The translations under genes and the position numbers were made by a program. A DNA stretch of 17,557 bases from a bacterium (GTDB lineage: Bacteria; Arandabacterota; Arandabacteria; Arandabacterales; JALGWA01), in NCBI GenBank assembly GCA_050125095.1, contig JASFEA010000069.1, positions 1-17,557 on the forward strand, written 5' to 3'. Under the pieces are notes generated by a model that was given only the letters and a program-made list of their open reading frames with translations, had not been told where the DNA came from and ran no database searches. The stretch's first letter is position 1. Every line of letters starts with the position of its first letter. Shown here in pieces: positions 1 through 16,335 of this stretch.

Positions 1-522
1 TCACCGGCCGTCTCCCTCATCGGCGACGCGGACGCCGCCGAGCGCGAGCTCGTAGACGGTTTCATGAAGAAATATGCCGAGCGCCGGCTCGTCCCCATAA
101 CCTGGGATGACGTCGCTTCCGCGGTTTATATAGAGCAGTGGACCAACCTTATAGCAGAGCGCGGAGGATGGCTCGAAGGCATGACGCCCGCGTCACTTCC
201 GGATGTAGTCAAGGACCTGAGACCGCTCGCGGCGAGTTACCAGCAGTTTATCGGCCGGCTACCGCCGGGAGAGGCCTTCCAGCAGATCTTGACAATGTCT
301 CTCGGCGCGTCACTTGCGGTGCACCTGGCGAGCCGCGGCTATGAGCTCAACGAGCGCCCGTCGCTGGGGTTCATGATGCATAAGGACGACGAGGAGATCC
401 AGCCGTTCGGAGTCCTCCCCAGACTTGCAATGGGCGAGATCAGCCCGGAGGACTGGGTCAGGCAATGCCAGACGATTGGCATCGCGGACGCAGACCTGGG
501 AAGCGTTCCGCGGACGGGCTAA
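1..522 (+). CDS. 5'-truncated CDS, C-terminal part of a hypothetical protein; tentatively the tail of a long M48-family Zn peptidase
   Basis: Frame 1 is open from base 1 (SPAVSLIGDADAAERELVDGFMKKY...) to TAA at 520-522, so the ATG at 64 is probably internal. The product guess is only recalled resemblance of the 'ITWDDV..AVY..W' and 'GEISPEDWVRQCQTIGIADADL' segments; no HExxH motif lies inside the window. Confidence 0.65.
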   Translation, partial: SPAVSLIGDADAAERELVDGFMKKYAERRLVPITWDDVASAVYIEQWTNLIAERGGWLEGMTPASLPDVVKDLRPLAASYQQFIGRLPPGEAFQQILTMSLGASLAVHLASRGYELNERPSLGFMMHKDDEEIQPFGVLPRLAMGEISPEDWVRQCQTIGIADADLGSVPRTG

Positions 523-1223
523 TACACTCCCGGCAGCAGCTTGTACCTCACCCTTTCAGCATATGCCTCATAGCCGGGGAGCTCGCGCCGGAGGGCCGCG
601 TCCTCGAGCCGTGTCCTTATCACCAGCAGCAACCCCACCAGTCCGGCGGGCACAAGGGCCCACAGCGAGCCCAGCACTATTGATATTGAGGCTTCCATCA
701 GGATAATGCCGGTGTAGCCCGGATGCCTAACGTAACGGTAGGGCCCTGAATCGATGACCGCGTGCCCGCTCCCGGGGCGGATTGCAACCGTGCTAGTGTA
801 GTGTTCATTCGCCCTGATGGCCCAGAGATGAAGGTGGGCGGAGAAGACGTAGACGACGTAAGCCGGCGGGTAAACCCAGAGCGGCAGAGGAGATGTCCAG
901 CCGAATCGCCCGCCGTCAAGAGCGCCGAGCGCAATCACGATGCCGGCAAGCGGGAAGAAGAACGCCATTAAGACCTTGTCCCAGGCTTTGGCGTCGGCGG
1001 CGGGTTTCATGCGCGCCCTTATGGTATCGGCCACGCCCGCCAGCAGCACCGCCACCGCGGTTATAAGGGCGAGATTCACCAGGCCGAAAACCCAGGCCTG
1101 CCAGTAGTCGGCCCGCCCCCCCAGCACGAGCAGGAGCGCCGCCAGAATCACTATCATGGCCGCGCCTCTTATGAAGAGTCTGAGGTTCAACTCAAGCCGC
1201 CCCCCCGCCGTGAGCTGCGCCAC
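519..1223 (-). CDS. Isoprenylcysteine carboxyl methyltransferase (ICMT/Ste14/PEMT-like) family membrane methyltransferase
   Basis: Several hydrophobic helices plus the family motifs 'H.VIDSGPYRYVRHPGY.G' and 'RTRLED..LRRELPGYEAY..RVRYKLLPG'. The start is uncertain: GTG 1223, or in-frame TTG 1190 one base after the upstream stop, or ATG 1157. Confidence 0.9.
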   Translation of the reverse strand: MAQLTAGGRLELNLRLFIRGAAMIVILAALLLVLGGRADYWQAWVFGLVNLALITAVAVLLAGVADTIRARMKPAADAKAWDKVLMAFFFPLAGIVIALGALDGGRFGWTSPLPLWVYPPAYVVYVFSAHLHLWAIRANEHYTSTVAIRPGSGHAVIDSGPYRYVRHPGYTGIILMEASISIVLGSLWALVPAGLVGLLLVIRTRLEDAALRRELPGYEAYAERVRYKLLPGVY

Positions 1224-1950
1224 CCGGCCCGGGTTTCTTCTTTATAAGCCCGAGCCTTATGCCCATTTTGATTATGCCGCGCCCCATGGCGGATATCTTC
1301 CAGGCCTCGGTGGGGTCGTTCCACACGGGGTCCTTCTTCAGCTCGAACCACGCTTTGGCCTCCGGGATGGAGGACACGGCGAAGAGTATGTTGATGATCA
1401 CCACATAGGCCAAGACGTAGGGGTCGCGCGTGCGCCACCAGAGCCACGGAACGAGCAGCCACAGGCCGGCCATGTAGGTGAAATAAATATCGCGCAGCAC
1501 CGCGAACCCGAATATCATCCCGCCGAAGGCCGCGATAAACACGCCTATCCAGTCAATCGCAAACACGCCCCCGTAAATGGATGCGACGCCGCGGCCGCCC
1601 TTGAACCCGTGATACACCGGCCAGATGTGTCCTACAACTCCCGTTGTCGCCGCAATGAGGTAGTAGGGTTCTCCCGGCATGTAGTGCTTGAGGAGAAACG
1701 TGGGGATGAACACCTTGAGCACGTCGCATACGAATGTCAGGAAGCCGTAGCGGGGGCCCACATTGGCCGATACCGACGTGGCGCTCACCGACTTCATGGT
1801 CATGGTCTTGTCGCTTCCGTCGATGCGCAGCACGGTCTCTTCGGGGACGGGTTTGCCCGGCGCGAAGATGGCGGAGACCACTCTGGCGAATGAAATGCTG
1901 CCGATAAGGTAAGCTCCCACGGCGACAACTGCGGCGACTAGGGGATTCAT
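1192..1950 (-). CDS. PlsY-family glycerol-3-phosphate acyltransferase homologue (divergent)
   Basis: N-terminal 'AYLIGSISFA', 'DVLK' and motif 2 'GHIWPVYHGFKGGRGVAS', with a multi-TM profile. Start placed at ATG 1950, which follows an AGGAGG SD and lies just after the upstream TAA (1955-1957), rather than at 1977. Confidence 0.85.
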   Translation of the reverse strand: MNPLVAAVVAVGAYLIGSISFARVVSAIFAPGKPVPEETVLRIDGSDKTMTMKSVSATSVSANVGPRYGFLTFVCDVLKVFIPTFLLKHYMPGEPYYLIAATTGVVGHIWPVYHGFKGGRGVASIYGGVFAIDWIGVFIAAFGGMIFGFAVLRDIYFTYMAGLWLLVPWLWWRTRDPYVLAYVVIINILFAVSSIPEAKAWFELKKDPVWNDPTEAWKISAMGRGIIKMGIRLGLIKKKPGPGGAAHGGGAA

Positions 1951-1954
1951 GACA

Positions 1955-4462
1955 TTAACCTCCTCCTTCATCCACATAGCCAGGGTAAACCCTGCCGGTA
2001 CTGCCGTCTATTGTTATCCGGTCACCGTCGTTTATGATGCGCGTGGCCCTCTCGACGCTGACCACCGCCGGGAGGCCGTACTCCCTCGCCACTATGGCGC
2101 TGTGAGAGAGCTGGCCGCCCGTTTCGGCGACTATTCCGCCTATGTTCGCGAACAGAGGAGTCCAACCGATGTCCATGAAGGGCACGATGAGGATATCCTC
2201 CCGGTTGAGTTTTCCTTGTATGCTTGATGGGTCCCTTACCACCCTGGCGCGGCCGCACACCCTTCCCGCGCTGCCGGGGATGCCGCGGAGGTATTCTAGG
2301 TTCTCGGGGAGGGGGCGTTCGCGGAGGGCGCCCTCCTCGCCGCAGATGATGTCGGGTACGTCCGCCTCCGCGTCCGCCTCCAGCTCAGAGCGCCGCGCGG
2401 CGATTGTCCTCTTCGCATCGCCGGGGGCCAACCTGCCTTCGGCGAGGTCGAGCAGTTCGTCGAAGTTGAGGAAGAAGAGGTCCGTGTGGCCTGCGAGCCG
2501 GCCGTCCTGCCTGAGGGACGATCCCAGCTCCAGGTAGAGCCTCCGCATCTGGTAAGCGTCCTCCGACATGAGGAAGCTTATGCGCTCGCGGAGGTTGAGG
2601 TATGTGATGGTAGAGTCGAGCAGCCTCGAGAACATGACGCGCCGCACGGGTCCCAGATTCCGCTCGACGGCCCGCCTGGCCTCCATGCGTTCGGCCGCAA
2701 CGTCCCTGCGCGCGGCATCTTCAGCGGCACCGCCGGCCATGGCCGCTATGCTCCTCCATATGAAACGCGGGTTCTCTATCCAGGGCGGCAAGGTGAAGTC
2801 GGTGGCGCTTGTGCTGAGGTAGCCGTAGCGCTCCATGAAGGCCTCGAAGCGGTCTAGAACGGCGCGCCCGGCGTCGGTTTGCTCCAGGCGGGCGACTATG
2901 TTCTCGGGCTCTCCCGTCTTCAAGAGGTCCAGAGCTTCGGGGATGCCTGCGGCTATATGGTCGGCGATGTTGCGCATCTCGTCATGGGGCTCGAGCGACT
3001 TGAGACCGGTGTATCCGGCGAGCAGCTTGCCGGGGTCAACGCCCGGAGCGCGCTTGCGAACCAGGCTCGAGAGCATCTTGTTGCGCACGAACATGTTTAT
3101 GGCCGTGATCCACATGTACCATTGCGTCTCCCCGTGGCTGCGCCGTAGGGAGGAGATCTCATCTAGAAGGTCATGAGGAACAACCCCCGACCAGTCGGCC
3201 GACCGGTAGCGCTTAAGCCTCGCCTCGTGCCTCGCCACGAAGGACCGTGCCCGCGCCGCAACGAAGGCGTTCTTGAAGACGAAGGACAGGAGTCCCAGGA
3301 GCCGTCGCATGAGTTGCGGGGACATCCTGGGGCGCTTGTGCACCGCGGCCTCGTCCCTCGCTATCATCTCGAAGAGGTTGACGGGCATCCCCATTTCGCC
3401 GAGCAGCTTCGCGAAGAGCGTGGCGTTGGCGAAGACGCGCGAGCGGATCAGCTTCACGAGGTCGGTGTAGTTTATATCCCGTCGCCCCAGCACCGTGTTG
3501 AATACCGGGCCGAAAACGTTGGTGGTCATGTCGACTATATTAGTCGAAAAGTAAAGCGGCTTGATCGGGCCGGGCGCCATGTCGCGCGCGAGCTTCCGCG
3601 AGTAAACATTCTTGCCGTAGAGCGACGTTATCGGGCGCGTCTGGAGTATCGCGAAACCGTCACCGTCCAGCGCCCACTCTATGTCCTGCGCCAGCGCCCT
3701 TTCGCGACTCACGGCCACCACCGTGTCGGCGAGCTGCTTGAGGCTGTCGCCGTCGAGCACGGGCCGCTCGGGGTCGGAGCAGGTTTTCTCGATAACTTCG
3801 CCGCCATGCTCGATCACGTAGCGGTCGGGGTTCCCGCGGCCGCTTGCGGCGGAATCGCCGAGCCCGCGCACCGCCTCGATTATGATGCGGAAGCGGCCGG
3901 TGTCGGGGTCGGCGCTGAAGGCGATGCCGGCGGCGCGAGGGTTCAGCATAGTCTGGACGAGCACCGCCATACCCGTGTCGTGAATAGGCCCGGGCGACGC
4001 GCGCCCAACGTGGCCGTGAAGGTATTCGATCAGGCGGTCGCTGAAGGCCGACATGTAGCACTTGCGTATGGCCTGCATGAGGGATTCCTCGTCCGTGACA
4101 TTCAGGAAGGTCTCGAGCTGGCCCGAGAAAGAGGCATAAGTGGAATCCTCGCCGACCATGGATGACCTTATGGCGACGGGGCCGCCCAGCGCGCGGAAGA
4201 CTTTCCTTATCTCGCCCTCGATTCGGGCCGGGAACTCGACTTCAAGAAGCGCCTTACGGATCCGGCCGGCCTCCAGCGTGTCCATCGGGGCGCCGACGCC
4301 GTGATTTGCGAGGAGTTCTGCGAGCACACCGGTGGGGATGACGAAACCGGGCGGCACCCTGAATCCCCTTCGGGCAATCCGGGCAAGGCTGGCGGCCTTT
4401 CCGCCGGACAGGGCTTCGCGGAGCGCGCGCCTGTCAGAGAGGTGGAACAGGGGACTACCCAT
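1955..4462 (-). CDS. PEP-utilising dikinase-family phosphotransferase with rifampin-phosphotransferase-like domain order (ATP-grasp, substrate domain, C-terminal phospho-His swivel domain)
   Basis: N-terminal motifs 'GGKAASL', 'VPPGFVI', 'AIRSS..GED...SFSGQLET', 'MAVLVQ', 'QDIEWA' and 'ILQTRPIT'. C-terminal 'ETGGQLSHSAIVAREYGLPAVV' (His codon 2102-2104) and 'IDGSTGRV'. There is no C-terminal pyruvate-binding TIM barrel. Confidence 0.92.
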   Translation of the reverse strand: MGSPLFHLSDRRALREALSGGKAASLARIARRGFRVPPGFVIPTGVLAELLANHGVGAPMDTLEAGRIRKALLEVEFPARIEGEIRKVFRALGGPVAIRSSMVGEDSTYASFSGQLETFLNVTDEESLMQAIRKCYMSAFSDRLIEYLHGHVGRASPGPIHDTGMAVLVQTMLNPRAAGIAFSADPDTGRFRIIIEAVRGLGDSAASGRGNPDRYVIEHGGEVIEKTCSDPERPVLDGDSLKQLADTVVAVSRERALAQDIEWALDGDGFAILQTRPITSLYGKNVYSRKLARDMAPGPIKPLYFSTNIVDMTTNVFGPVFNTVLGRRDINYTDLVKLIRSRVFANATLFAKLLGEMGMPVNLFEMIARDEAAVHKRPRMSPQLMRRLLGLLSFVFKNAFVAARARSFVARHEARLKRYRSADWSGVVPHDLLDEISSLRRSHGETQWYMWITAINMFVRNKMLSSLVRKRAPGVDPGKLLAGYTGLKSLEPHDEMRNIADHIAAGIPEALDLLKTGEPENIVARLEQTDAGRAVLDRFEAFMERYGYLSTSATDFTLPPWIENPRFIWRSIAAMAGGAAEDAARRDVAAERMEARRAVERNLGPVRRVMFSRLLDSTITYLNLRERISFLMSEDAYQMRRLYLELGSSLRQDGRLAGHTDLFFLNFDELLDLAEGRLAPGDAKRTIAARRSELEADAEADVPDIICGEEGALRERPLPENLEYLRGIPGSAGRVCGRARVVRDPSSIQGKLNREDILIVPFMDIGWTPLFANIGGIVAETGGQLSHSAIVAREYGLPAVVSVERATRIINDGDRITIDGSTGRVYPGYVDEGGG

Positions 4463-4472
4463 CCTGGCTCCT

Positions 4473-5387
4473 CTATTTGCGCAATGCCGCCTTGGTCAGC
4501 ATGTGATCCGGGATCTCCACGTCCGGGTCTATGCGCTTGACGATGTACTCGGTTCCCCCGCCCTCGGCGAGCTCGTCCTTGAAGATCATATGCCTGGGGT
4601 ACCAGCCGTCGCCAAGCCTGGACACCTCGGTTATGGTGGTGGTCTTGAGGAGCTTTCCACTCCTGGCGAAGCGCTCTTCCCTCAGGGGAAGCCAGCGCTC
4701 CTTGTCGACCCAGACCTTTCGCGAGTAATAGGCCACGTCCTTAGCTGTCGAGTTGAGTTCCACCACCCAGCAATCCCTGCCGTCCAGCTCCTCGCTGCCG
4801 ACCACGGCGGCTTCGTACTTGTCCAGCAGCCTGTGGTTCTCGGTTATATCTTCATACGAAAGGTCGGAGCCCATGACCGACTGCCTGAGGAGGTGGCCGG
4901 ATATGGCGATGATACGGTCGGTGGGCTCGGGGATGTAGTTCCATATCTTGTCCCCGAGCCGTAGCATTTTCTTGCCCTTCTCGCGCGGCGGCGCGAGGTA
5001 GAGAACGAGGGCGTTGTCCACGCCCTTTCTGTAAACCCGGGACTCTATCGTGCGCGTGCCGCTGCGCCCGTGTACAACCATGTCGGATTCTATCTCGGCC
5101 TGGTCGAAGTACATGTTGCCGTCGATCCGCTCGAGCACCTCCTCGCCCGTGGGGGTATTCCCGCCTACCGTGGTCTCGCCCGGAGCGGTCTCAGCCACGG
5201 TGGTCTCGCCCGCGGCGGTCTCGCCCGGAGCGGTCTCGGCCGAGGCGGGCCCCGCGCCCGGAATCCCGAATACCGCTAACGCCGCCGCGAGCGCAATCAG
5301 TATAGATGAGAGCAGGGCGGCCCGGACATAATGCTTCCCGGGCGCTATCGCAGCCGCAACCGGAAGTCGTCTCATGTCATCAATCAT
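4473..5387 (-). CDS. LolA-like 'outer membrane lipoprotein-sorting' family periplasmic protein
   Basis: Hydrophobic signal/anchor segment, then 'YLAPPREKGKKML', 'MGSDLSYEDI', 'WVDKERWLP' and 'SGKLLK'. ATG 5387 follows an AGGAG SD; ATG 5411, overlapping the upstream stop, is an alternative start. Confidence 0.85.
   Translation of the reverse strand: MIDDMRRLPVAAAIAPGKHYVRAALLSSILIALAAALAVFGIPGAGPASAETAPGETAAGETTVAETAPGETTVGGNTPTGEEVLERIDGNMYFDQAEIESDMVVHGRSGTRTIESRVYRKGVDNALVLYLAPPREKGKKMLRLGDKIWNYIPEPTDRIIAISGHLLRQSVMGSDLSYEDITENHRLLDKYEAAVVGSEELDGRDCWVVELNSTAKDVAYYSRKVWVDKERWLPLREERFARSGKLLKTTTITEVSRLGDGWYPRHMIFKDELAEGGGTEYIVKRIDPDVEIPDHMLTKAALRK
5163..5237 (-). repeat. Five in-frame 15-bp tandem repeats encoding ETAPG-ETAAG-ETTVA-ETAPG-ETTVG
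   Basis: GGTCTC recurs on the + strand every 15 bp, at 5172, 5187, 5202, 5217 and 5232. Confidence 0.9.
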
Positions 5388-5410
5388 ACCATTTGCTCCT
5401 GTTTTCTGCA

Positions 5411-6685
5411 TCAGGCTTCGAGCTCTTTAAACAGCTGGGCGGTCCGGCGTTTGAATATGCCGATTCCGGATATCGCCGTTCCCACAAGGGTTGCAAGGAG
5501 CCCCGGGATGAAACCGATATAGTAAGCCTCGGGCGTAATCTTGGCCCGGATAACGTTGGCCATGAGCACTCCCGAGCTCTTGGTCATGCTGGTCACATCA
5601 AGCCCCACTTCCTGCAGGTAGTAGGAAACACCGAGCCCGACGGCCGTGCCGAGGGCCGAGCCCACGAAGCCTATGAGAAGCGACTCGGACAGCATCGCGA
5701 AGTACACCCTGTCCTTGGATTCGCCTATTGCGAGCCGGACTCCTATTTCCCCGTACCGCCTTATGCCCGACATGAGGCCGGCATTCCACAGCACGATGGA
5801 CATGACCGCGAAGAACACGAGCAGCATGAGCGAAGCGCGGAAGCCGACGATGTCCAGGTATTCGCCGAGGCCGTTCTGCTGGCGCAGCGTTACCATGACC
5901 GGAGTGAAGTCGTCTCCGTCGTCCGAGCGGCTCCCGTTGAAGGCGGCCGCGAGAGTGTCGGCCGCATGCCTGCTGTAAACCATGTTGGGGAAGAAGCCCA
6001 GGATCTCGGACGCGGCACCTTCCATGTCCAGGGCGTACTGTATGTCGGCGATATCGGCTATCATGGTATTGCGATCGAGTGGCCCGATGCCGAAACGTAT
6101 GGTGCCGGCTATAACGAAGTTCTGCGCCGCAAGCGCCCCGTAAGCCGTCGATCCTATGAATGTGGCCGTCTCCCCGGGTCCGACCTCGAGCGTCGCCGCG
6201 AAGTCGTCGCTCACAAGTATCTCGCCCGGGGCCGCGGGCATCCGGCCCCGGTGAATCGCGCCCGCGAGTCCGAGCCTCTCTGGCTCGCGCGACCCCGCGC
6301 CGAGGATGTCGATGGCCATTCCCATTACGGGGCCCTGGGAACGCGTTTCGCCCTGCTCGTCGGGTATGTCCAGGAGGCCGCCGTACTTGATGCGCGCCGT
6401 CCACTCCATGGCCGGGTAGTCGCGCTTGAGCTCTTCCAGGACCGCGGAGAGGTTTCTCACAGCGAGGTCATTTGGTATCTGGCTGGATATCGCACGGTAT
6501 CCGCGCGTCATGACTTTGACATGGCCCGTGTCTATCTTGGCGTTGCTCCGTACTGCCTCATCGATGACGCCGTACATGAAGCAGTACGCGAGCACCGCGA
6601 GCGCGACCCCCAGTGTCACCACGATGATGGGAAACGTGCTCCGGTGCCGGTCTCTGAGGAGGCCTTTCATCAGGAACCTGATCAT
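5411..6685 (-). CDS. ABC transporter permease, FtsX/MacB/LolCE family
   Basis: True start is ATG 6685 (MIRFLMKGLLRDRHRS...) in an ATGA overlap with the upstream gene; the ORF-track extension to 7171 overlaps another CDS. One TM, a large periplasmic domain and three TMs, with 'RRYGEIGVRLAIGE'. Confidence 0.92.
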   Translation of the reverse strand: MIRFLMKGLLRDRHRSTFPIIVVTLGVALAVLAYCFMYGVIDEAVRSNAKIDTGHVKVMTRGYRAISSQIPNDLAVRNLSAVLEELKRDYPAMEWTARIKYGGLLDIPDEQGETRSQGPVMGMAIDILGAGSREPERLGLAGAIHRGRMPAAPGEILVSDDFAATLEVGPGETATFIGSTAYGALAAQNFVIAGTIRFGIGPLDRNTMIADIADIQYALDMEGAASEILGFFPNMVYSRHAADTLAAAFNGSRSDDGDDFTPVMVTLRQQNGLGEYLDIVGFRASLMLLVFFAVMSIVLWNAGLMSGIRRYGEIGVRLAIGESKDRVYFAMLSESLLIGFVGSALGTAVGLGVSYYLQEVGLDVTSMTKSSGVLMANVIRAKITPEAYYIGFIPGLLATLVGTAISGIGIFKRRTAQLFKELEA

Positions 6686-7869
6686 CGGCGTTTCCCCCTG
6701 AGAGCATGCGTCGGGTTGAGCTTGGCTATGCGCGAAGCAGGCAGGCCGCTTACGATAGTCACGCTGATGAGTACCAGTAGCGTGGTGCCCAGAACGAGGC
6801 GGGCTCCGTAAACCGGGTAGAGCACCTGCGGCACGGGCATTCCCATGTCGCTCATCATCTCGGGCACGGCGAATCCCCTGGCTTTGGAAAGGGCGAGAAT
6901 GGGGATGCCGTATGCGGCGCCGACTACGAGCGCGAGCACGCCGTGCATGGCGCCCTCGAGTGTGAAGAGCCAGATTACCCTGGCCCGGTCGAGGCCGAGA
7001 GCGATCAGCGTGCCTATCTCCTTGCGCCTGCGCCATATCGCCAGCACCTGCGTATCGAATATCGCCAGCAGGCCCATGAGCAGCATAATGCTGTATATGA
7101 TATGCGAGCTCGACGACTTCATCTCCACCAGGTCCTCTATGTCCTTTAAGAGATAGTCGAGGTCGTGCCATATCCAGGCGGCGCTGCCCGCCTCAACGGG
7201 CTCGGCGCCCTGCGCCAGCACCACCAGGCTCGCCTGGCCGGAGACCTGGAGCATTTGCTGCAGGTCTTCGATTGGAAGCCACATCTGCCCCCGGTCCATC
7301 CCCGGCACCGAGAGACTGACGACATGCTCTATGCGAACCTCGCCTGCATCGAAGGTGCCGTTGACGTCGCGCCACCTGACGGTCACGTAATCGCCGACAC
7401 GCAGGCCGGTTTCCCTGGCGGTCTGTGCGCCGATCATGGCCGACACCACGTCCGCGTCGTCGTTTACCATCTCCTGCGTCGGAATATTGAGAATGGTCTG
7501 GCCGGGTTCCATTCCATAGAGCACGACGGCCTGCGCCTGGCCGCGGGGATATATGGCGCCGGTGGTTATGAGTATGGGCGTGGCCTCCCTCCGCGATATG
7601 AGCCGGTTGAGCGCTTGGGGAATGGGGGAGTGGCTCTCTTCGAATGTAAGAGGGTCGTAAGGGTCGTAGGTAGCCTGCCAGTACTGGCCGCCGCCCGCTT
7701 CGAAGTCGATCTTGGCGTCGACCATGGCCCTGCTCATGCCGCCCACTATGCCCTGCGCCCAGATGATCATGACGAAGGCGGCCGAGAGCACGAACACGTT
7801 AAGCCATGTTCTGAGGCCGGCGCCCAGGATGTTCCTCAGTGCGAGTTTCGCTAGCAGTCCGAATCTCAT
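6682..7869 (-). CDS. ABC transporter permease, FtsX/MacB/LolCE family
   Basis: 'LALRNIL...RTWL', a periplasmic domain, 'RRRKEIGTLIALG' and the C-terminal 'LPASRIAKLNPTHALR'. ATGA overlaps at both ends. Confidence 0.92.
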   Translation of the reverse strand: MRFGLLAKLALRNILGAGLRTWLNVFVLSAAFVMIIWAQGIVGGMSRAMVDAKIDFEAGGGQYWQATYDPYDPLTFEESHSPIPQALNRLISRREATPILITTGAIYPRGQAQAVVLYGMEPGQTILNIPTQEMVNDDADVVSAMIGAQTARETGLRVGDYVTVRWRDVNGTFDAGEVRIEHVVSLSVPGMDRGQMWLPIEDLQQMLQVSGQASLVVLAQGAEPVEAGSAAWIWHDLDYLLKDIEDLVEMKSSSSHIIYSIMLLMGLLAIFDTQVLAIWRRRKEIGTLIALGLDRARVIWLFTLEGAMHGVLALVVGAAYGIPILALSKARGFAVPEMMSDMGMPVPQVLYPVYGARLVLGTTLLVLISVTIVSGLPASRIAKLNPTHALRGKRR

Positions 7870-8576
7870 TCTTCCGGCTCCGGCGTTTGCTCGACGTCCT
7901 CGACGACGCGGCCGTCCATCAGGGTTATCTTGCGGCGCAGGTACCTTATGACCTTGGAGTCATGCGTCGCGAACACGAACGTGGTCTTGAGGTCGGTGTT
8001 GAGGGCGGCCATGGTCCGGAGAATATTGTGCGAGTTGGCCGCGTCGAGGTTGGCCGTGGGCTCGTCGGCCAGGACTATCTCGGGTTTCTTGACCATGGCC
8101 CTCGCCACGGCGACGCGCTGGCTCTCTCCGCCCGAGAGCTGCGACGGCTTAGACTTCGCTTTGTCTGTGAGCCCTACCCACTCCAGTGCCTCCATCACCA
8201 TCTGTCTGCGGCGGGCTCCGTCGATATCCAGAAGAAGCAGCGGGAACTCGACGTTCTCGTAAACCGTGTAGACCGGGAGGAGGTTATAAGTCTGGAAAAT
8301 GAAACCCAGGTGCTCGCTTCTCAACCGGGCGGCTTCCCTGTGGCTGAGCTGCGATGTGTCCTGCCCCAGCACGATGGCCTTGCCGGCGGTGGGGAAGTCG
8401 AGCGCGCCCACGAGGTTGAGCAGCGTGGTCTTTCCCGAGCCGCTGGGGCCCACGAGCCCCACGAACTCGCCCCTGTCTACACTTAGGTTGACGTCGGCGA
8501 GGGCCGTGAAACTGCCTCCCCCTACCGGGTACCGCTTGACCAGGTCATTGGTCTTGATCAGCGCTCCGTTTTGCAT
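7866..8576 (-). CDS. ABC transporter ATP-binding protein, LolD/MacB type
   Basis: Walker A GPSGSGKTT, Q-loop GFIFQ, signature LSGGESQRV, Walker B/D-loop VLADEPTANLD and H-loop ATHD. GGAGG SD upstream. Confidence 0.96.
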   Translation of the reverse strand: MQNGALIKTNDLVKRYPVGGGSFTALADVNLSVDRGEFVGLVGPSGSGKTTLLNLVGALDFPTAGKAIVLGQDTSQLSHREAARLRSEHLGFIFQTYNLLPVYTVYENVEFPLLLLDIDGARRRQMVMEALEWVGLTDKAKSKPSQLSGGESQRVAVARAMVKKPEIVLADEPTANLDAANSHNILRTMAALNTDLKTTFVFATHDSKVIRYLRRKITLMDGRVVEDVEQTPEPEE

Positions 8577-8662
8577 CGCGCGTCCTCCGCGAATTCTAAT
8601 CGTCTTTTGCCTTCCTATTCCATATTCGGCCGGCGCCCGGGGCGAAAGGTCCGCCGCGCGCC

Positions 8663-9847
8663 CTAGTGGTTGAATATCAGCATTACCTGCCCGCCGTAGC
8701 CTCCGCGCAGTATGAGGGGATTGTAGACCCCACCGGGCTCCTCGGGGCGGTTTTCCGGATAGTAGAACAGGCTCACGTTGAGAGACAGGTATGTCCAGTA
8801 ATGGTCCCAGGCCGCGTACTGCGAAAAGTCCTGGTTGTCCCAGGAGTAGAATGATATGGCCGACAGCCTGTCGACGTACCCGGCCGGGTAAGACAGCGAG
8901 AGCCCGCTCGTGTTGGATGTCTCGCCCGACTCGAAGGCCTGCTCGGACGAGTTCATGACCATATGCTCAAGCAGGGTATGAAGGCCGTTCCCGAGTCCGA
9001 AGGTGTAGTCGACACCGAGCGTGGTCATATTGAGCCACTTGTAGTTGTAAGGAATGGAGTCTGAATTCTTGTATGTCAGTGAAGTCTCGAACCATGCACC
9101 CACCACGACGTCCCACCTGCCGTCCAGCCCCAGCCTGTATTCGGGGAAGTCGGCTACGTAAGGGGCGGGGCCGTCGACGACGCGGTGGTGATAGGTAATG
9201 GCGGCCTCACCGGTGAGGAGCGGGAACTGCGCGCGCCCGCCGTACTCAACCCGGTCTGTAACCGAGGGCCACATCTCGTAGCCCTTGGGTTCGTCGTTTC
9301 CGTAGAGAAGCCAGAGCCAGATGGTGGAGTTCTCCGGGCTTACGTATTTGAATGTCGCTGCGTAGACTCCGTCGGTAAGGCTCTGAGGGTCACGCGGGTC
9401 CAGAACGTCGAACCAGCGGAGGGCTCTGAGAAGATAGGCGGGCCCGAAGTTGATTTGTTGCAGCCCCGCGCGAGTCTCGCTGCTCGCGCTCGCGAAGCGC
9501 AATTTCAAACGGTATAGGTCAACGTAAGCGGTGTCGTCGTCGATGTTGCTTACCCGGGAGGCGAGGGCGTCCAGCGAAGCCTCAAGGTCGAAAAAGGTGT
9601 TGTCGCTTGTCTGCTGGTAGAGCGTGAGCTGAGGTATGTAGCTTGCGCCTGTGCCGATGCCCCACCTGTCCTGATTCTCGACATGGTTCAGCCACGTCGA
9701 GGCCTGGCCCCTGAGTTCATAGGTTAAAGCGGACGCCTGATCATAAGCGAGCCCGAGGCTGGCGAGAATCAACGTCGCAAGGAATGCCGGCAACACTATA
9801 CGCATTTCTCGCCGCGTTTTCCGACGCCTTTTATACAAGCCCGTCAT
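8663..9847 (-). CDS. Hypothetical exported protein, probable outer-membrane beta-barrel
   Basis: Signal-peptide-like N-terminus (alternative start ATG 9805, MRIVLPAFLATLILASLGLA). Aromatic-rich alternating strands, 'RAGLQQINFG', and a terminal strand 'GGQVMLIFNH'. ATG 9847 forms an ATGA overlap with the tetR stop. Confidence 0.75.
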   Translation of the reverse strand: MTGLYKRRRKTRREMRIVLPAFLATLILASLGLAYDQASALTYELRGQASTWLNHVENQDRWGIGTGASYIPQLTLYQQTSDNTFFDLEASLDALASRVSNIDDDTAYVDLYRLKLRFASASSETRAGLQQINFGPAYLLRALRWFDVLDPRDPQSLTDGVYAATFKYVSPENSTIWLWLLYGNDEPKGYEMWPSVTDRVEYGGRAQFPLLTGEAAITYHHRVVDGPAPYVADFPEYRLGLDGRWDVVVGAWFETSLTYKNSDSIPYNYKWLNMTTLGVDYTFGLGNGLHTLLEHMVMNSSEQAFESGETSNTSGLSLSYPAGYVDRLSAISFYSWDNQDFSQYAAWDHYWTYLSLNVSLFYYPENRPEEPGGVYNPLILRGGYGGQVMLIFNH

Positions 9848-10449
9848 ATCTTGTCTCCGCCCTGCTCGCGGGGGAGCAGGCCATAGAAGAAAAGGCCGTT
9901 CAGGTCGCGCGCGAAATCCACGTTGTCGGTATAGGAGTCCCGGAGTTCCTTGTTGTGAGCGAGCTCGCCCATCTTGTCCAGGGCGGCCATGAAGAGCTCC
10001 GGTCGCACCTCCCGCATGTCGCCGCGCTTCTGGGCCCTCTCGGCGAATTCGAGGAAGAGGTGGAAGCTGCGCTCCCTGATCTCGTTCATGAAGGAGAGGA
10101 TCTCGGCGTCGCTGCCGAGGAGCTCCTCGATTAGATCGGGCGACATCTGAGACATGAGCGACATCTTGTATTGAAGTATGAGGTTTAGCTTCTCGGCGAA
10201 CGGCACCGGCATGGCGTCGATTTCATCGACCTTGCTGTAGGCCCGGTCTAGGAGATCGTTCCATGTGAACTTGAACACGTCGAGCTTGTTGGCGAAGTGC
10301 TTGTAGAAGGTCATCTTGCTCGTCTCCGCCTTCCGGCATATCTCTTCGACCGTAACCCTCTTGAATCCGAACCGGTTGAAAAGTCGCGACGCCGCAGCCA
10401 CGATGTCGGCCTTCTTATCCCCCCGGCGGTTTGTATTGCTGCGTGCCAT
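9844..10449 (-). CDS. TetR/AcrR family transcriptional regulator
   Basis: N-terminal HTH 'IVAAASRLFNRFGFKRVTVEEICRKAETSKMTFYKHFANK', 201 aa, GGGAG SD. Confidence 0.95.
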   Translation of the reverse strand: MARSNTNRRGDKKADIVAAASRLFNRFGFKRVTVEEICRKAETSKMTFYKHFANKLDVFKFTWNDLLDRAYSKVDEIDAMPVPFAEKLNLILQYKMSLMSQMSPDLIEELLGSDAEILSFMNEIRERSFHLFLEFAERAQKRGDMREVRPELFMAALDKMGELAHNKELRDSYTDNVDFARDLNGLFFYGLLPREQGGDKI

Positions 10450-10491: not shown

Positions 10492-10512
10492 TATATACTA
10501 TTATCGTATATA
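10492..10512. promoter_or_regulatory. Putative TetR operator 1: TATATAC-N7-GTATATA
   Basis: Perfect 7-bp inverted repeat abutting the -10 element and covering the predicted start site of the tetR operon promoter. Confidence 0.7.
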
Positions 10513-10540
10513 TTCTAACTCATAGTAAACGAATCGTCAA
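10512..10540 (-). promoter_or_regulatory. Sigma70-type promoter of the tetR operon
   Basis: Minus strand: TTGACG (10540-10535), 17 bp, TAGAAT (10517-10512). Confidence 0.75.
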
Positions 10541-10564
10541 CGGTGAATTTACGATATGCACATA

Positions 10565-10585
10565 TATATACCAATATCGTATAAT
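10565..10585. promoter_or_regulatory. Putative TetR operator 2: TATATAC-N7-GTATAAT, overlapping a + strand TATAAT (10580-10585)
   Basis: Near-direct copy of operator 1 (TATATACnantatcGTATA), offset by 73 bp. Confidence 0.6.
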
Positions 10586-10674: not shown

Positions 10675-11145
10675 ATGGGAACACTCGGCTCCTTCTGGGG
10701 CGTGGGCGGCATACTCGCGGTAATCGGGTACGCCGTATTCAGGCTCGCCATCCGCGCACGTTATATCAGTACGTATGAACTAGTGTGGTATCACTGGGTA
10801 GTGCTTGTGCTCGGCACCCTGATCCTGGTCTACGTCAAATCTTATAGAGCTTTTCTGCTCAAGCTTGCCCCGAGAATCGCGACCAGGGCCAGAGATATAC
10901 GGGCCGAACCGAAACCTGCAAAAGTCATCTTCGCGCCGTTCTACTGCATGGGGTTCTTCGGGTCGGGCAGGCCGACACAGGTGAGAATAGTCTCCATAAC
11001 CCTGGCCATGGTGGCCCTGATCATAGTGGTCCGCTATCTGCCCGAGCCGTGGCGCGCTATCCTCGATTTCTGTATCGCAGTTGCCCTCGCTCTTGGTTTC
11101 TATTTCATACTTCTGGAGAGCCTTCGACATAAACCTGGGGATTAG
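10675..11145 (+). CDS. Hypothetical small integral membrane protein (about 4 TM)
   Basis: 156-aa ORF with four hydrophobic segments and a 'FAPFYCMGFF' motif, divergent from tetR. TATAAT lies 7 nt upstream of the ATG. Confidence 0.8.
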   Translation: MGTLGSFWGVGGILAVIGYAVFRLAIRARYISTYELVWYHWVVLVLGTLILVYVKSYRAFLLKLAPRIATRARDIRAEPKPAKVIFAPFYCMGFFGSGRPTQVRIVSITLAMVALIIVVRYLPEPWRAILDFCIAVALALGFYFILLESLRHKPGD

Positions 11146-14982: not shown

Positions 14983-15037
14983 CTTTGCCCCCTCGTCAAT
15001 TGATGTATCACGCCGTTCCATGAACCGCAGCATTGTA

Positions 15038-16265: not shown

Positions 16266-16335
16266 AGGTCAAGGACGTGCGGAATAGGGCGCGGGCCGCT
16301 TGAATCGCCCGCTGCTGGCTGACGGGAGGAAGCGC

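What the first reader, a model, noticed from the sequence alone, without database searches (positions are those of the whole stretch)
519..10449. Nine-gene TetR-controlled operon joining a trans-envelope Lol-like transporter to a dikinase, a PlsY homologue and a membrane methyltransferase: candidate uncharacterised lipid transport and remodelling system
Seen: nine co-oriented genes with ATGA overlaps (9844-9847, 7866-7869, 6682-6685) or very short gaps, apart from one 86-bp gap, behind one promoter with an operator-like dyad. Known: LolD/LolCE-type ABC systems and LolA folds move hydrophobic cargo across the periplasm; PlsY uses acyl-phosphate; ICMT/PEMT-family enzymes methylate lipidic substrates; TetR proteins often sense hydrophobic ligands. 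Inference: barrel, LolA-like carrier and ABC move a lipid-like molecule, which is phosphorylated, acylated or transferred, and methylated at the inner membrane. Direction (import or export) and substrate cannot be read from sequence. I know of no characterised pathway with this gene set.
Basis: partly seen in the sequence, partly recalled or inferred. Interest (0 to 1): 0.8.

Follow-up and report, generated by a model that had tools for sequence, protein, structure and literature searches.

The report
Kinase–PlsY lipid module with Lol-like transporter
An uncultured sediment bacterium carries a repressor-controlled gene cluster that joins a lipid-extracting transporter to a kinase and an altered copy of the lipid-building enzyme PlsY, a pairing kept in many uncultured bacteria and likely to be an undescribed way of attaching fatty acids to membrane lipids.

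Summary
Nine co-oriented minus-strand genes (519-10449) are packed as described. The three ATGA overlaps sit exactly where stated, and there is one 86-bp gap.

The link between enzymes and transporter is conserved.
- In 71 of 71 related loci with enough upstream DNA, an RPH/PigC-type swivelling-histidine dikinase lies directly upstream of the PlsY paralogue.
- In 19 of 21 loci visible on both sides, a type VII (FtsX) ABC permease gene lies alongside: 15 of the LolA_like type and 4 of a MacB_PCD type.
- The TetR and the ICMT-like methyltransferase are variable accessories. Other lineages carry lipase-like hydrolases or a PucC-like MFS transporter instead.

The PlsY paralogue keeps the acyl-phosphate site of PlsY but has lost the glycerol-3-phosphate clamp. 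The genome has a normal PlsY and PlsX elsewhere and no DegV/FakB.

My best reading: the dikinase turns a free fatty (carboxylic) acid into an acyl-phosphate, and the PlsY paralogue transfers it to an acceptor other than G3P. A Lol-like extractor, carrier and porin-like barrel move the lipid outward. The chemistry and the transport direction are inferred, not shown.

The module is rare and patchy (1 of 18 and 1 of 151 genomes in two phyla). I found no paper describing it. This scan noted the same pair before on other DNA (e1-966690).

The parts
10567..10583 (.). Candidate TetR operator O2 (TATACCA-ATA-TCGTATA). It overlaps the -10 hexamer of a plus-strand promoter-like site facing the divergent gene at 10675.
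   Evidence: Motif scan; 73-bp-spaced direct repeat D1; plus-strand promoter-like site 10557-10585.
10512..10540 (-). Promoter-like site for the operon: -35 TTGACG, 17-nt spacer, -10 TAGAAT.
   Evidence: This is a consensus match only; no transcript data exist.
10494..10510 (.). Candidate TetR operator O1 (TATACTA-TTA-TCGTATA), starting 2 nt downstream of the -10 hexamer.
   Evidence: The same 7-3-7 motif is a perfect palindrome upstream of the TetR orthologue in L118 (15211-15227).
9844..10449 (-). g1: TetR-family regulator, 201 aa. A variable accessory of the module.
   Evidence: PF00440, 48.4 bits against a cut-off of 24. No NCBIfam equivalog is reached. Homologues occur in 2 of 84 loci.
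8663..9847 (-). g2: secreted porin-like outer-membrane beta-barrel, 394 aa, of an unnamed family.
   Evidence: No Pfam or NCBIfam hit. The AF2 model has pLDDT 75.6 and pTM 0.73, with about 18 strands. The top Foldseek matches are general porins and AlgE, TM about 0.5. Conserved in 14 of 84 loci. Read as a fusion or read-through with a PlsY-like gene in P0031.
7866..8576 (-). g3: ABC ATPase of the LolD/FtsE/MacB type.
   Evidence: PF00005, 119 bits. LolD TIGR02211 scores 235.2, below the 307.75 cut-off.
6682..7869 (-). g4: FtsX-type (type VII ABC) permease, 395 aa.
   Evidence: PF02687, 50.5 bits. lolCE TIGR02212 scores 41.1 against 362.45. Only distant matches to solved LolC, MacB and YtrF.
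5411..6685 (-). g5: second FtsX-type permease, 424 aa, a likely heterodimer partner of g4.
   Evidence: PF02687, 54.3 bits.
4473..5411 (-). g6: LolA_like periplasmic carrier, 312 aa. It has an N-terminal hydrophobic segment, no lipobox cysteine, and a Glu/Thr/Ala/Pro/Gly-rich repeat linker.
   Evidence: PF17131, 172.9 bits. The closest solved chains are 3buu, 3bk5, 4z48 and 9tp6, none with a named function. It is the only PF17131 match in the genome. The N-terminal features are my reading of the translation.
1955..4462 (-). g7: swivelling-histidine dikinase with RPH/PigC architecture (ATP-grasp, central domain, mobile His domain; no PEP/pyruvate barrel).
   Evidence: PF01326 and PF00391 only. 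Best NCBIfam scores are far below cut-off: 357 against 945, RedH 328 against 1350, RPH 311 against 999. PDB rifampin phosphotransferases match at E 4e-62. His787 in GGQLSH is invariant in 25 orthologues.
1192..1950 (-). g8: PlsY paralogue, 252 aa. The acyl-phosphate site is kept, the G3P clamp is lost, and there is a new beta-hairpin insert and a C-terminal extension of about 45 aa.
   Evidence: PF02660, 71.7 bits; TIGR00023 scores 60.1 against 137.2. Alignment with the genome's own PlsY. Residue roles come from PMC5700162. The model has pLDDT 83.2 and matches only PlsY structures, TMt 0.78-0.81.
519..1223 (-). g9: ICMT/PEMT-family integral-membrane methyltransferase, 234 aa. A lineage-specific accessory.
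   Evidence: PF04140 47.7 bits and PF04191 33.2 bits. GPYxxVRHPGY is invariant in 13 homologues. Present in 16 of 84 loci, in two different positions.
10675..11145 (+). Divergent 156-aa membrane protein of unknown family; a possible member of the same regulon.
   Evidence: No Pfam hit. Homologues lie next to the module in L086 and L091. Operator O2 overlaps its promoter-like site. The Atlas lists only hypothetical proteins.

Best explanation
This is an accessory, horizontally scattered envelope-lipid module.

Shown:
- An RPH/PigC-type swivelling-histidine dikinase (g7) and a PlsY paralogue (g8) form an obligate gene pair.
- The pair almost always lies beside a type VII (FtsX) ABC transporter. 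Here that transporter comes with a LolA_like periplasmic protein (g6) and a porin-like outer-membrane barrel (g2).
- g8 has the PlsY fold. It keeps the residues that hold acyl-phosphate and has lost those that clamp glycerol-3-phosphate.
- The genome has its own canonical PlsY and PlsX.

Inferred:
- g7 uses ATP to phosphorylate the carboxyl group of a free fatty (or other lipid) acid through its phospho-histidine, giving an acyl-phosphate.
- g8 takes this labile intermediate at the cytoplasmic face of the inner membrane and esterifies it to a membrane acceptor other than G3P, for example a lyso-lipid or another hydroxyl lipid.
- In this lineage the ICMT-like enzyme (g9) offers a second way to cap a lipid carboxyl group, by methyl esterification.
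- The ABC (g3-g5) extracts the amphiphile or its product from the outer leaflet of the inner membrane, hands it to g6, and it leaves or enters the outer membrane through g2. This outward direction is what all characterised type VII ABC systems use.
- The TetR (g1) binds two 17-bp operators and probably releases them when the lipid acid accumulates.

The role I think most likely is handling free fatty acids or lyso-lipids (detoxification and recycling), not bulk phospholipid synthesis.
For: Pairing and linkage:
- The dikinase is directly upstream of the PlsY paralogue in 71 of 71 loci with at least 300 nt upstream. It is also there in 4 of 4 close dikinase orthologues from species genomes.
- 0 of 76 more distant RPH-like dikinase loci carry a PlsY-like, FtsX or LolA_like match.
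- A type VII ABC permease lies beside the pair in 19 of 21 loci with at least 1.5 kb visible on both sides. Fifteen are LolA-type, co-oriented or divergent, and four are MacB_PCD-type.
- A database protein (P0031) reads the PlsY paralogue and a g2-type barrel as one 622-aa ORF, 40% identical to g2, E 2e-70.

Active site (roles from PMC5700162 passages):
- Kept: the A-T of the SAT motif (acyl carbonyl binding), the His of GH.WP, and the GG(K->R)G phosphate-hole loop.
- Not kept: Arg45, Asn37, and His177/Asn180 of the HxxN motif.
- The fold matches only PlsY structures.

Why a free acid:
- The genome has a canonical PlsY (176.8 bits) and PlsX, so ACP-derived acyl-phosphate is already provided for.
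- No DegV/FakB was detected (the MAG is 91% complete).
- The genes that recur beside the pair elsewhere are lipase/esterase-like hydrolases (30 of 84 loci), an ICMT-like carboxyl methyltransferase (16 of 84) and a PucC-like MFS (14 of 84).

Regulation: the operator motif is shared with a 34%-identical TetR locus.

That is not independent evidence.
Against: - No member of the PEP-synthase/RPH superfamily is known to me to phosphorylate a carboxylate. The known substrates I can name (recalled) are enols, phenols and hydroxyls.
- Retention of the carbonyl-binding Thr is suggestive, not proof, that the donor is an acyl-phosphate.
- The alignment around the first PlsY motif is ambiguous. MAFFT keeps a Ser opposite Ser35, while HMMER places a hydrophobic residue there.
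- Transport direction is argued only by analogy.
- Barrel plus LolA-like pairs (DUF1302/DUF1329) in Pseudomonas are needed for growth on fatty esters (passages of bioRxiv 10.1101/2020.07.04.188060), which could equally point to uptake.
- A cytoplasmic hydrolase (hydA, no signal peptide) is not obviously needed in a detoxification scheme.
- The TetR is absent from most related loci.
- There is no expression, biochemical or lipid data of any kind.
Confidence: 0.5

Rival explanations
1. Dedicated biosynthesis and export of a special outer-membrane or surface lipid. The dikinase and PlsY paralogue build an unusual acylated (and here methylated) lipid from an acid that is not made on ACP. The Lol-like system delivers it to the outer membrane, as DevBCA does for heterocyst glycolipids (recalled).
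For: The core evidence is the same. In addition:
- The barrel gene is directly fused or adjacent to the PlsY paralogue in P0031.
- All characterised type VII ABC systems act outward.
- In L126 the neighbours are a fatty-acid desaturase, a GT2 glycosyltransferase and a radical SAM enzyme, which looks biosynthetic.
- Borrelia BBJ23-29 has been read in print as an export system for a non-polar ligand (PMC13078400, abstract and passages).
Against: - A structural envelope lipid would be expected to be lineage-wide, yet the module is found in 1 of 18 and 1 of 151 genomes of two phyla.
- Control by a TetR-type repressor and the recurrent lipase-like neighbours fit substrate-induced handling better.
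- If the acyl chains came from fatty-acid synthesis, PlsX would do and no dikinase would be needed.
Confidence: 0.25
2. Uptake and salvage. The barrel and LolA_like carrier bring exogenous fatty esters, fatty acids or lyso-lipids to the inner membrane, and the dikinase and PlsY paralogue fix them into the cell's own lipids. This would be a nutritional analogue of FakAB/PlsY or LplT/Aas.
For: - No DegV/FakB was found in the genome.
- Secreted (hydB, with a signal peptide) and cytoplasmic (hydA) esterase-like genes lie beside the pair in other lineages, together with a PucC-like MFS that could flip a lyso-lipid inward as LplT does. For LplT/Aas I saw only the start of the abstract of PMC11416262 in the listing.
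- DUF1302/DUF1329 mutants of P. putida are unfit on Tween 20 and butyl stearate (passages).
- The Atlas's nearest Pfam-bearing cluster to g2 is 41% DUF1302. That is a lead only.
Against: - No type VII ABC transporter is known to import, and their mechanism does not pass substrate across the inner membrane (recalled; MacB review seen only in the listing).
- Free fatty acids need no protein to cross the inner membrane.
- The link between g2 and DUF1302 rests on a language-model similarity without an alignment.
Confidence: 0.12
3. Antibiotic or xenobiotic defence. The RPH-like kinase inactivates a hydroxylated hydrophobic toxin by phosphorylation and the TetR-controlled ABC pump expels it. The PlsY paralogue has a secondary or unrelated role.
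For: - The closest solved relatives of g7 are rifampin phosphotransferases, E 4e-62.
- The RPH, PigC and RedH models are among the top NCBIfam hits.
- TetR plus MacB-type pumps are a classic resistance layout.
- The distribution is patchy, as for resistance genes.
Against: - g7 scores far below every RPH/PigC/RedH cut-off.
- The strict 71 of 71 pairing with a PlsY paralogue that keeps the acyl-phosphate site has no place in a simple inactivation scheme.
- 0 of 76 RPH-like loci from actinobacteria and others carry the PlsY paralogue or this transporter.
Confidence: 0.08
4. Neighbours by chance: two or three unrelated operons (transporter, enzymes, methyltransferase) that merely abut in this contig.
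For: There is an 86-bp gap between g2 and g3. The TetR and ICMT-like genes are not conserved with the core. There are no transcript data.
Against: The linkage is conserved in different gene orders and orientations, across PlsY-like sequences that fall into 63 clusters at 90% identity and 25 at 70%. Start and stop codons overlap through the cluster.
Confidence: 0.03

Closest known systems
PlsX/PlsY and FakAB/PlsY acyl-phosphate pathways of bacterial phospholipid synthesis
   Same: g8 has the PlsY fold (TMt about 0.8 to 5xj5-5xj8). It keeps the acyl-phosphate 'phosphate hole' and the carbonyl-binding Thr. An ATP-using enzyme is encoded next to it, as a kinase feeds PlsY in the Fak system.
   Different: - The G3P clamp residues Arg45, His177 and Asn180, and Asn37, are not kept.
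- A beta-hairpin insert and a C-terminal extension of about 45 aa are added.
- The partner is a swivelling-His dikinase, not PlsX or FakA/FakB.
- The genome keeps a separate canonical PlsY.
Rifampin phosphotransferase (RPH), PigC/RedH, and related PEP-synthase-like dikinases without the PEP/pyruvate domain
   Same: Three-part architecture: ATP-grasp (PF01326), central domain and mobile His domain (PF00391), with the GGxxSH histidine invariant.
   Different: - g7 scores about a third of the curated cut-offs.
- It is about 30% identical to the RPH-like proteins of actinobacteria.
- It is always paired with a PlsY paralogue.
- The proposed substrate, a carboxylate, would be new for the superfamily.
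LolCDE-LolA lipoprotein release system of E. coli
   Same: A LolD-like ATPase, two different FtsX-type permeases and a LolA-superfamily periplasmic protein, encoded together.
   Different: - The LolD, LolC and LolE equivalog cut-offs are not reached.
- A real LolCE scoring 373.6 bits lies on another contig.
- The carrier is PF17131, not PF03548.
- The system has its own porin-like barrel, has enzymes attached, and is a rare accessory rather than essential housekeeping.
Borrelia BBJ23-BBJ29 cluster (PMC13078400; computational study, abstract and passages read)
   Same: An outer-membrane barrel gene, a MacB-like type VII ABC with its ATPase, and a LolA-like protein in one cluster, proposed to move an unidentified non-polar ligand from the inner to the outer membrane.
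   Different: - The Borrelia barrel is Omp85-family; g2 is porin-like.
- Borrelia has one permease (a homodimer) and TPR proteins.
- No dikinase, PlsY paralogue or methyltransferase is described there.
LplT-Aas lysophospholipid repair system (abstract start of PMC11416262 seen in the listing; the rest recalled)
   Same: An MFS flippase is coupled to an ATP-dependent re-acylation of a lyso-lipid at the inner membrane. In related loci a PucC-like MFS follows the dikinase-PlsY pair directly.
   Different: There is no homology to Aas or LplT. Activation would run through acyl-phosphate, not acyl-ACP. The window itself has no MFS gene in the cluster.
DUF1302/DUF1329 barrel plus LolA-fold pair of Pseudomonas (PP_0765/PP_0766; bioRxiv 10.1101/2020.07.04.188060, passages read)
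   Same: An outer-membrane barrel is paired with a periplasmic protein and an inner-membrane transporter, with mutant phenotypes on fatty esters. The Atlas's nearest Pfam-bearing cluster to g2 is 41% DUF1302.
   Different: g2 gives no Pfam DUF1302 hit. The Pseudomonas transporter is RND, not ABC. That DUF1329 has a LolA-like fold is recalled and was not tested here.

Membership tests
PlsY (glycerol-3-phosphate acyltransferase, PF02660 / TIGR00023) | Pfam family score over the gathering cut-off | tested here: met
   71.7 bits against 24.1; 68.6 bits in the genome scan.
PlsY (glycerol-3-phosphate acyltransferase, PF02660 / TIGR00023) | NCBIfam equivalog cut-off (same function as PlsY) | tested here: not met
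   60.1 bits against 137.2. The genome's other copy scores 176.8 bits on PF02660.
PlsY (glycerol-3-phosphate acyltransferase, PF02660 / TIGR00023) | Seven-helix PlsY fold | tested here: met
   The AF2 model has pLDDT 83.2. The only Foldseek hits at E <= 0.001 are five PlsY chains, TMt 0.78-0.81.
PlsY (glycerol-3-phosphate acyltransferase, PF02660 / TIGR00023) | Acyl-phosphate site: Thr41 and Ala40, His92, Lys104-Ala107 loop (roles from PMC5700162) | tested here: met
   The SAT motif, GH.WP and GGRG(V/I/L)(S/A) are invariant or nearly so in 25 sequences; Lys104 is Arg.
PlsY (glycerol-3-phosphate acyltransferase, PF02660 / TIGR00023) | G3P clamp: Ser35, Arg45, Asn180, His177 (plus Asn37) | tested here: not met
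   The Arg45 position is Ala/Val/Leu/Met/Tyr. The HxxN motif is replaced (an I/V-P-E motif lies in that region). Asn37 is not kept. Ser35 is ambiguous between two alignments.
RPH / PigC-type swivelling-histidine dikinases | ATP-grasp (PF01326) plus mobile His domain (PF00391), without a PEP/pyruvate TIM barrel | tested here: met
   Only PF01326 (182.8 bits) and PF00391 (80.3 bits) are found at E <= 0.01. His787 is invariant.
RPH / PigC-type swivelling-histidine dikinases | Equivalog-level score for RPH, PigC, RedH or PEP synthase | tested here: not met
   RPH 310.7 against 999; PigC 303.3 against 1300; RedH 328.4 against 1350; PpsA TIGR01418 206.9 against 739.75.
LolCDE-LolA lipoprotein release system | LolD, LolC and LolE equivalog scores | tested here: not met
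   LolD 235.2 against 307.75. lolCE scores 41.1 (g4) and 17.9 (g5) against 362.45. A true LolCE elsewhere scores 373.6.
LolCDE-LolA lipoprotein release system | Carrier belongs to LolA proper (PF03548) | tested here: not met
   g6 matches PF17131 (172.9 bits) and MucB_RseB only. PF03548 finds nothing in the genome. That model also missed Bacteroides in the control, so it may be blind in this group.
LolCDE-LolA lipoprotein release system | Substrate is a triacylated lipoprotein | not testable with these tools
   No biochemical data exist.
Type VII (MacB/FtsX) ABC transporter superfamily | FtsX four-helix permease domain with a separate or fused ABC ATPase | tested here: met
   PF02687 scores 50.5 and 54.3 bits; PF00005 scores 119.2 bits.
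ICMT-family membrane methyltransferases | Pfam ICMT score and the RHPxY cofactor-binding motif (motif recalled) | tested here: met
   PF04140 scores 47.7 bits against 24. GPYxxVRHPGYxG is invariant in 13 homologues. The NCBIfam isoprenylcysteine methyltransferase equivalog is not reached, 35.6 against 160.
Borrelia BBJ23-29-type export cluster | Omp85-family barrel next to a MacB-like ABC and a LolA-like protein | tested here: not met
   The top Foldseek matches of the g2 model are general porins and AlgE, not Omp85. The ABC and LolA-like parts are present.
TetR-family repressors | N-terminal TetR helix-turn-helix | tested here: met
   PF00440 scores 48.4 bits. DNA binding and ligand were not tested.

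The most novel reading that the evidence does not exclude
g7 is a 'fatty acid, water dikinase', which would be a third and so far unknown route to acyl-phosphate besides PlsX and FakAB. It arose inside the PEP-synthase/rifampin-phosphotransferase superfamily. It feeds a PlsY paralogue whose acceptor site has been rebuilt for a lipid other than glycerol-3-phosphate. Together they form an ACP- and CoA-independent lipid acylation pathway that evolution has repeatedly wired to type VII ABC lipid extractors and, here, to a complete inner-to-outer-membrane conveyor.
Probability: 0.35. Interest if true: 0.85.

Novelty: new variant of a known kind. Interest (0 to 1): 0.7.

Why it matters
PlsY has so far been known as a single-purpose enzyme with one acceptor (G3P) and two suppliers of acyl-phosphate (PlsX and Fak).

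A conserved paralogue with an intact donor site, a rebuilt acceptor site and its own dedicated ATP-dependent kinase would widen acyl-phosphate chemistry to new lipids. It would also add a new reaction type to the RPH/PEP-synthase superfamily.

The module also gives a handle on the many uncharacterised LolA_like (PF17131) plus FtsX transporters. Their cargo is unknown, and the attached enzymes here point to a fatty-acyl compound.

The parts are few and soluble or small, so the idea can be tested directly by expression and lipidomics. It is not a housekeeping system: it is rare and patchy, so its ecological role in anoxic sediments (fatty-acid stress, lipid scavenging or surface lipids) remains open.

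Tried and rejected
- Complex prediction: dikinase residues 283-835 with the PlsY paralogue, both as alignments. Result: no verdict (score 0.00, mark 0.32, controls not run). This says nothing for or against binding.
- RNA evidence for co-transcription: no RNA holder is listed, only DNA metagenome runs. I therefore did not use read laying.
- Single-dyad statistics: the best palindrome in the intergenic region is matched by 62 of 300 shuffles, so I dropped the dyad as stand-alone evidence and used the cross-locus motif instead.
- Omp85 barrel as in Borrelia: not supported. The top Foldseek matches of the g2 model are general porins and AlgE.
- Housekeeping Lol system: rejected.
- Taxon-wide trait: rejected. 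The PlsY paralogue is in 1 of 18 genomes of the window's phylum, including 0 of 2 same-genus genomes (83% and 93% complete), and in 1 of 151 sampled genomes of the phylum of L009.
- Literature: searches for dikinase plus PlsY, PlsY paralogues and LolA-like plus FtsX clusters found no description of this pair. bioRxiv supplements were closed and PMC supplements were not opened, so a mention there would have been missed.
- Atlas searches for g2 and the 156-aa divergent protein gave only unnamed clusters.
- Failed calls corrected: wrong frame, redone; wrong argument, redone through. (bad word format) was not repeated.

Full report
ANATOMY

The window is a whole 17,557-bp contig of a 3.35-Mb, 91%-complete MAG. 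Nine ORFs lie head to tail on the minus strand between 519 and 10449.

Pfam and NCBIfam give:
- g1: TetR
- g2: no family
- g3: LolD/FtsE/MacB-type ATPase
- g4 and g5: FtsX permeases
- g6: LolA_like (PF17131)
- g7: PPDK_N plus the PEP-utilizers mobile domain, and nothing else
- g8: G3P_acyltransf (PlsY)
- g9: ICMT/PEMT

ATGA overlaps lie at 9844-9847, 7866-7869 and 6682-6685. There is a one-base overlap at 5411, gaps of 10 and 4 nt, one gap of 86 nt, and a 32-nt overlap of g8 and g9. g8 has a GGAGGAGG ribosome-binding site before the ATG at 1950, so I take that start and not 1977.

REGULATION

A sigma-70-like promoter (TTGACG-17-TAGAAT, 10540-10512, minus strand) precedes g1.

The palindromes in the AT-rich intergenic region are not remarkable by themselves: 62 of 300 shuffles do as well. 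A specific 17-bp element is different.
- TATAC(T/C)A-N3-TCGTATA occurs twice, 73 bp apart, at 10494-10510 (just after the -10) and at 10567-10583. The second copy lies over the -10 of a plus-strand promoter-like site that faces the divergent 156-aa membrane protein gene.
- The same 7-3-7 element is a perfect palindrome immediately upstream of the only other distinct TetR orthologue found (L118, 34% identity).
- Elsewhere in 645 kb of window and related loci it appears only in L086 (the same population as the window) and, with two mismatches, inside a gene in L126/L127.

I take these as the TetR operators. This is inference; no binding data exist.

IS THE LINK CONSERVED?

Dikinase as anchor. 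A scan of one genome per species kept 80 loci.
- Only 4 are close orthologues (39-45% identity): an unclassified MAG, a Calditrichaceae MAG, a WOR-3 MAG and a Candidatus Eisenbacteria MAG. All 4 have the PlsY paralogue directly downstream.
- The two with upstream DNA carry g3/g4/g5/g6 homologues in the window's order.
- The other 76 loci are RPH-like genes of about 30% identity, mostly actinobacterial. None has a match to g4, g5, g6 or g8. This serves as a negative control.

PlsY paralogue as anchor. A metagenome scan kept 80 more loci. Of the 84 loci in all:
- 71 have at least 300 nt upstream, and all 71 have the dikinase directly upstream.
- 21 show at least 1.5 kb on both sides of the pair. 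Fifteen of these have the LolA_like-type transporter (11 co-oriented upstream as here, 4 divergent downstream).
- Four have instead a MacB_PCD-type FtsX permease directly upstream of the dikinase (L123 and L147 by tblastn; L109 by Pfam; L136 by clustering).
- Two have neither (L126 and L127, one population).

The loci are not all independent. The 82 complete PlsY-like ORFs fall into 63 clusters at 90% identity and 25 at 70%, and the 21 two-sided loci represent 19 clusters at 90%.

A further link comes from the representative library. One protein (P0031, 622 aa) reads a PlsY paralogue and a g2-type barrel as a single ORF (40% identity to g2 over its whole length, E 2e-70), and P0054 shows the same start. 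Whether this is a true fusion or a read-through, the two genes abut in that lineage.

WHAT VARIES

g1 homologues occur in 2 of 84 loci and g2 homologues in 14.

Downstream of the PlsY paralogue, among 64 loci with at least 800 nt of sequence:
- 20: a 236-262-aa PGAP1/lipase-like alpha/beta hydrolase with a GHS(A/T/S)GG elbow and no signal peptide (hydA)
- 13: the ICMT-like gene
- 12: a PucC-like MFS
- 3: a HEAT-repeat protein with an ICMT/DUF1295-like part
- 16: something else or nothing recognised

Other variations:
- In L116 and L118 the ICMT-like gene sits upstream of the dikinase instead.
- A secreted PETase/PAF-acetylhydrolase-like esterase (hydB) follows in 5 loci.
- L136 has two tandem dikinase-PlsY pairs.

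The theme of all these partners is ester and carboxyl chemistry on lipids.

THE PlsY PARALOGUE

The genome has a normal PlsY on another contig (176.8 bits). By my reading of the translations, it lies between ORFs that look like der and gpsA; I did not scan those ORFs.

g8 scores 60.1 bits against the 137.2 cut-off for the PlsY equivalog. Its model (pLDDT 83.2) matches only PlsY crystal structures (TMt 0.78-0.81).

The structure paper on Aquifex PlsY (PMC5700162, passages read) assigns these roles:
- Acyl-phosphate phosphate: the backbone of Lys104-Ala107 and His92.
- Acyl carbonyl: Ala40/Thr41.
- G3P: Ser35, Arg45, Lys104 and Asn180, with Ser142 and His177 on the 2-OH.
- Oxyanion: Asn37.

In the alignment of 20 paralogues with the genome's own PlsY, and in the HMMER alignment to 5xj5:
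- The donor-side residues are kept: S-A-T, GH.WP and GG(R)G.
- Arg45 is Ala/Val/Leu/Met/Tyr.
- The HxxN motif is gone.
- Asn37 is not kept.
- Ser35 is ambiguous between the two alignments.

New features are a six-residue insert that models as a beta-hairpin (residues 39-52), new invariant residues (D133, R153, W169, R173, T174, D176, P196, E197), and a conserved amphipathic C-terminal extension.

The plain reading is the same kind of donor and a different acceptor.

THE DIKINASE

g7 has the three-part layout of rifampin phosphotransferase: ATP-grasp, central domain and swivelling His domain. It matches the solved RPHs at E 4e-62. The GGQLSH histidine is invariant in 25 orthologues. It reaches only about a third of any curated cut-off.

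The substrates of this group known to me are enols, phenols and hydroxyls. This is recalled; a two-component hydroxyphenylethanone kinase paper, PMC12167813, appeared only in the listing. A carboxylate would be new.

The argument for a carboxylate is indirect.
- The obligate partner keeps an acyl-phosphate site.
- The genome already has PlsX for ACP-derived acyl-phosphate (two pieces on separate contigs), so a dedicated kinase makes sense only for free acids.
- No DegV/FakB was found.
- The variable partners are esterases, and a carboxyl methyltransferase family.

THE TRANSPORTER HALF

- g3-g5 are a type VII ABC system but not LolCDE. A real LolCE scoring 373.6 bits is elsewhere, and g4 and g5 match solved LolC, MacB and YtrF only at E 1e-3 to 1e-5.
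- g6 is the only PF17131 protein in the genome. By my reading of the translation, it has a hydrophobic N-terminus with an Ala-x-Ala site and no lipobox cysteine.
- g2 is a conserved, secreted protein ending in FNH. It models as a barrel of about 18 strands (pLDDT 75.6). The top Foldseek matches are general porins and AlgE, TM about 0.5. Its most conserved stretch (residues 124-160) is modelled with low confidence and may be an internal loop or plug.

The nearest published analogue is the Borrelia BBJ23-29 cluster: an Omp85 barrel, a MacB-like ABC and a LolA-like protein, proposed from structure prediction to export an unknown non-polar ligand (PMC13078400).

A looser analogue is the DUF1302/DUF1329 pair of Pseudomonas. 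It is co-fit with an RND transporter on Tween 20 and butyl stearate, and its role is disputed between export of a wall component and ester hydrolysis.

DISTRIBUTION

- The PlsY-paralogue profile finds 146 representatives at E <= 1e-30 among 1.84 billion (fragments included), 626 at <= 1e-10 and 7,395 at <= 0.001, the last figure including ordinary PlsY.
- It is in 1 of 18 genomes of the window's phylum. Neither of two same-genus genomes (83% and 93% complete) has it.
- It is in 1 of 151 sampled genomes of the phylum of L009.
- Near-identical DNA is held by metagenome runs labelled wetland, sediment, marine sediment and seawater. Five runs hold half or more of the sampled words, and one of them may be the source sample.

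The module is therefore a rare accessory spread across distant lineages.

MECHANISM AND RIVALS

I commit to this order of events:
1. A free lipid acid is phosphorylated by g7.
2. The acyl group is transferred by g8 to a non-G3P acceptor at the inner membrane.
3. The carboxyl group may alternatively be methylated by g9.
4. g3-g5 extract the compound outward, g6 carries it, and g2 passes it through or into the outer membrane.
5. g1 derepresses the operon.

Steps 1-3 rest on residue conservation and gene context, step 4 on analogy, and step 5 on a shared DNA motif.

As to role, I prefer handling of free fatty acids or lyso-lipids (confidence 0.5 for the whole statement). The rivals are:
- dedicated biosynthesis and export of a special lipid (0.25)
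- nutritional uptake (0.12)
- xenobiotic inactivation (0.08)
- chance adjacency (0.03)

NOVELTY

Each protein belongs to a known superfamily. The combination, the altered PlsY and the implied dikinase reaction are not in the literature I could search (supplements not searched).

An earlier agent of this scan described the same kinase-PlsY pair on another genome (e1-966690). My counts were made before I saw that note and agree with it.

Noticed in passing
window 10675-11145 (+): A 156-aa multi-pass membrane protein of no known family, divergent from the TetR gene. Candidate operator O2 lies over its promoter-like -10. Homologues sit beside the module in L086 and, on the far side of the ICMT-like gene, in L091 (45% identity).
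   Followed up: partly
window 11734-15033 (-): A 1099-aa secreted protein with a C-terminal T9SS type A sorting domain (TIGR04183, 30.9 bits against 23) and a FlgD-Ig-like domain. The rest of the protein has no family hit.
   Followed up: no
window 15177-15947 (-) and 1-522 (+): Two ORFs (256 aa, and 173 aa open at the contig start) without any Pfam or NCBIfam match. The second converges on g9 with overlapping stop codons (519-522).
   Followed up: no
window 16300-17145 (+): A carbon-nitrogen hydrolase. Its best NCBIfam hit is archaeal-type nitrilase, 246.7 bits, below the 500 cut-off.
   Followed up: no
L136 2030-5280 and 7475-10753: Two tandem dikinase-PlsY paralogue pairs in one metagenome contig. 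They are separated by a PGAP1-like hydrolase and a 459-aa protein with a weak ferrochelatase-family hit.
   Followed up: partly
P0031 (622 aa) and P0054 (381 aa), representative library: A PlsY paralogue and a g2-type porin-like barrel are called as one ORF, with a signal-peptide-like stretch between them. This is either a true fusion or two abutting genes without an intervening stop. Seen only as proteins, with no DNA context.
   Followed up: partly
L126 6185-14853: A variant neighbourhood without an ABC transporter: a fatty-acid desaturase upstream of the dikinase, and a HEAT-repeat protein with an ICMT/DUF1295-like part, a GT2 glycosyltransferase and a radical SAM/SPASM enzyme downstream.
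   Followed up: no
L006 1707-2702 (-): An IS110-family transposase directly upstream of the dikinase, where other loci have the transporter. This fits the module being mobile or rearranged.
   Followed up: no
G000 contigs C10 (41252-41779) and C25 (26707-26940): The only PlsX matches are two partial pieces on different contigs (profile positions 1-176 and 245-322). This is probably one gene split by assembly.
   Followed up: no
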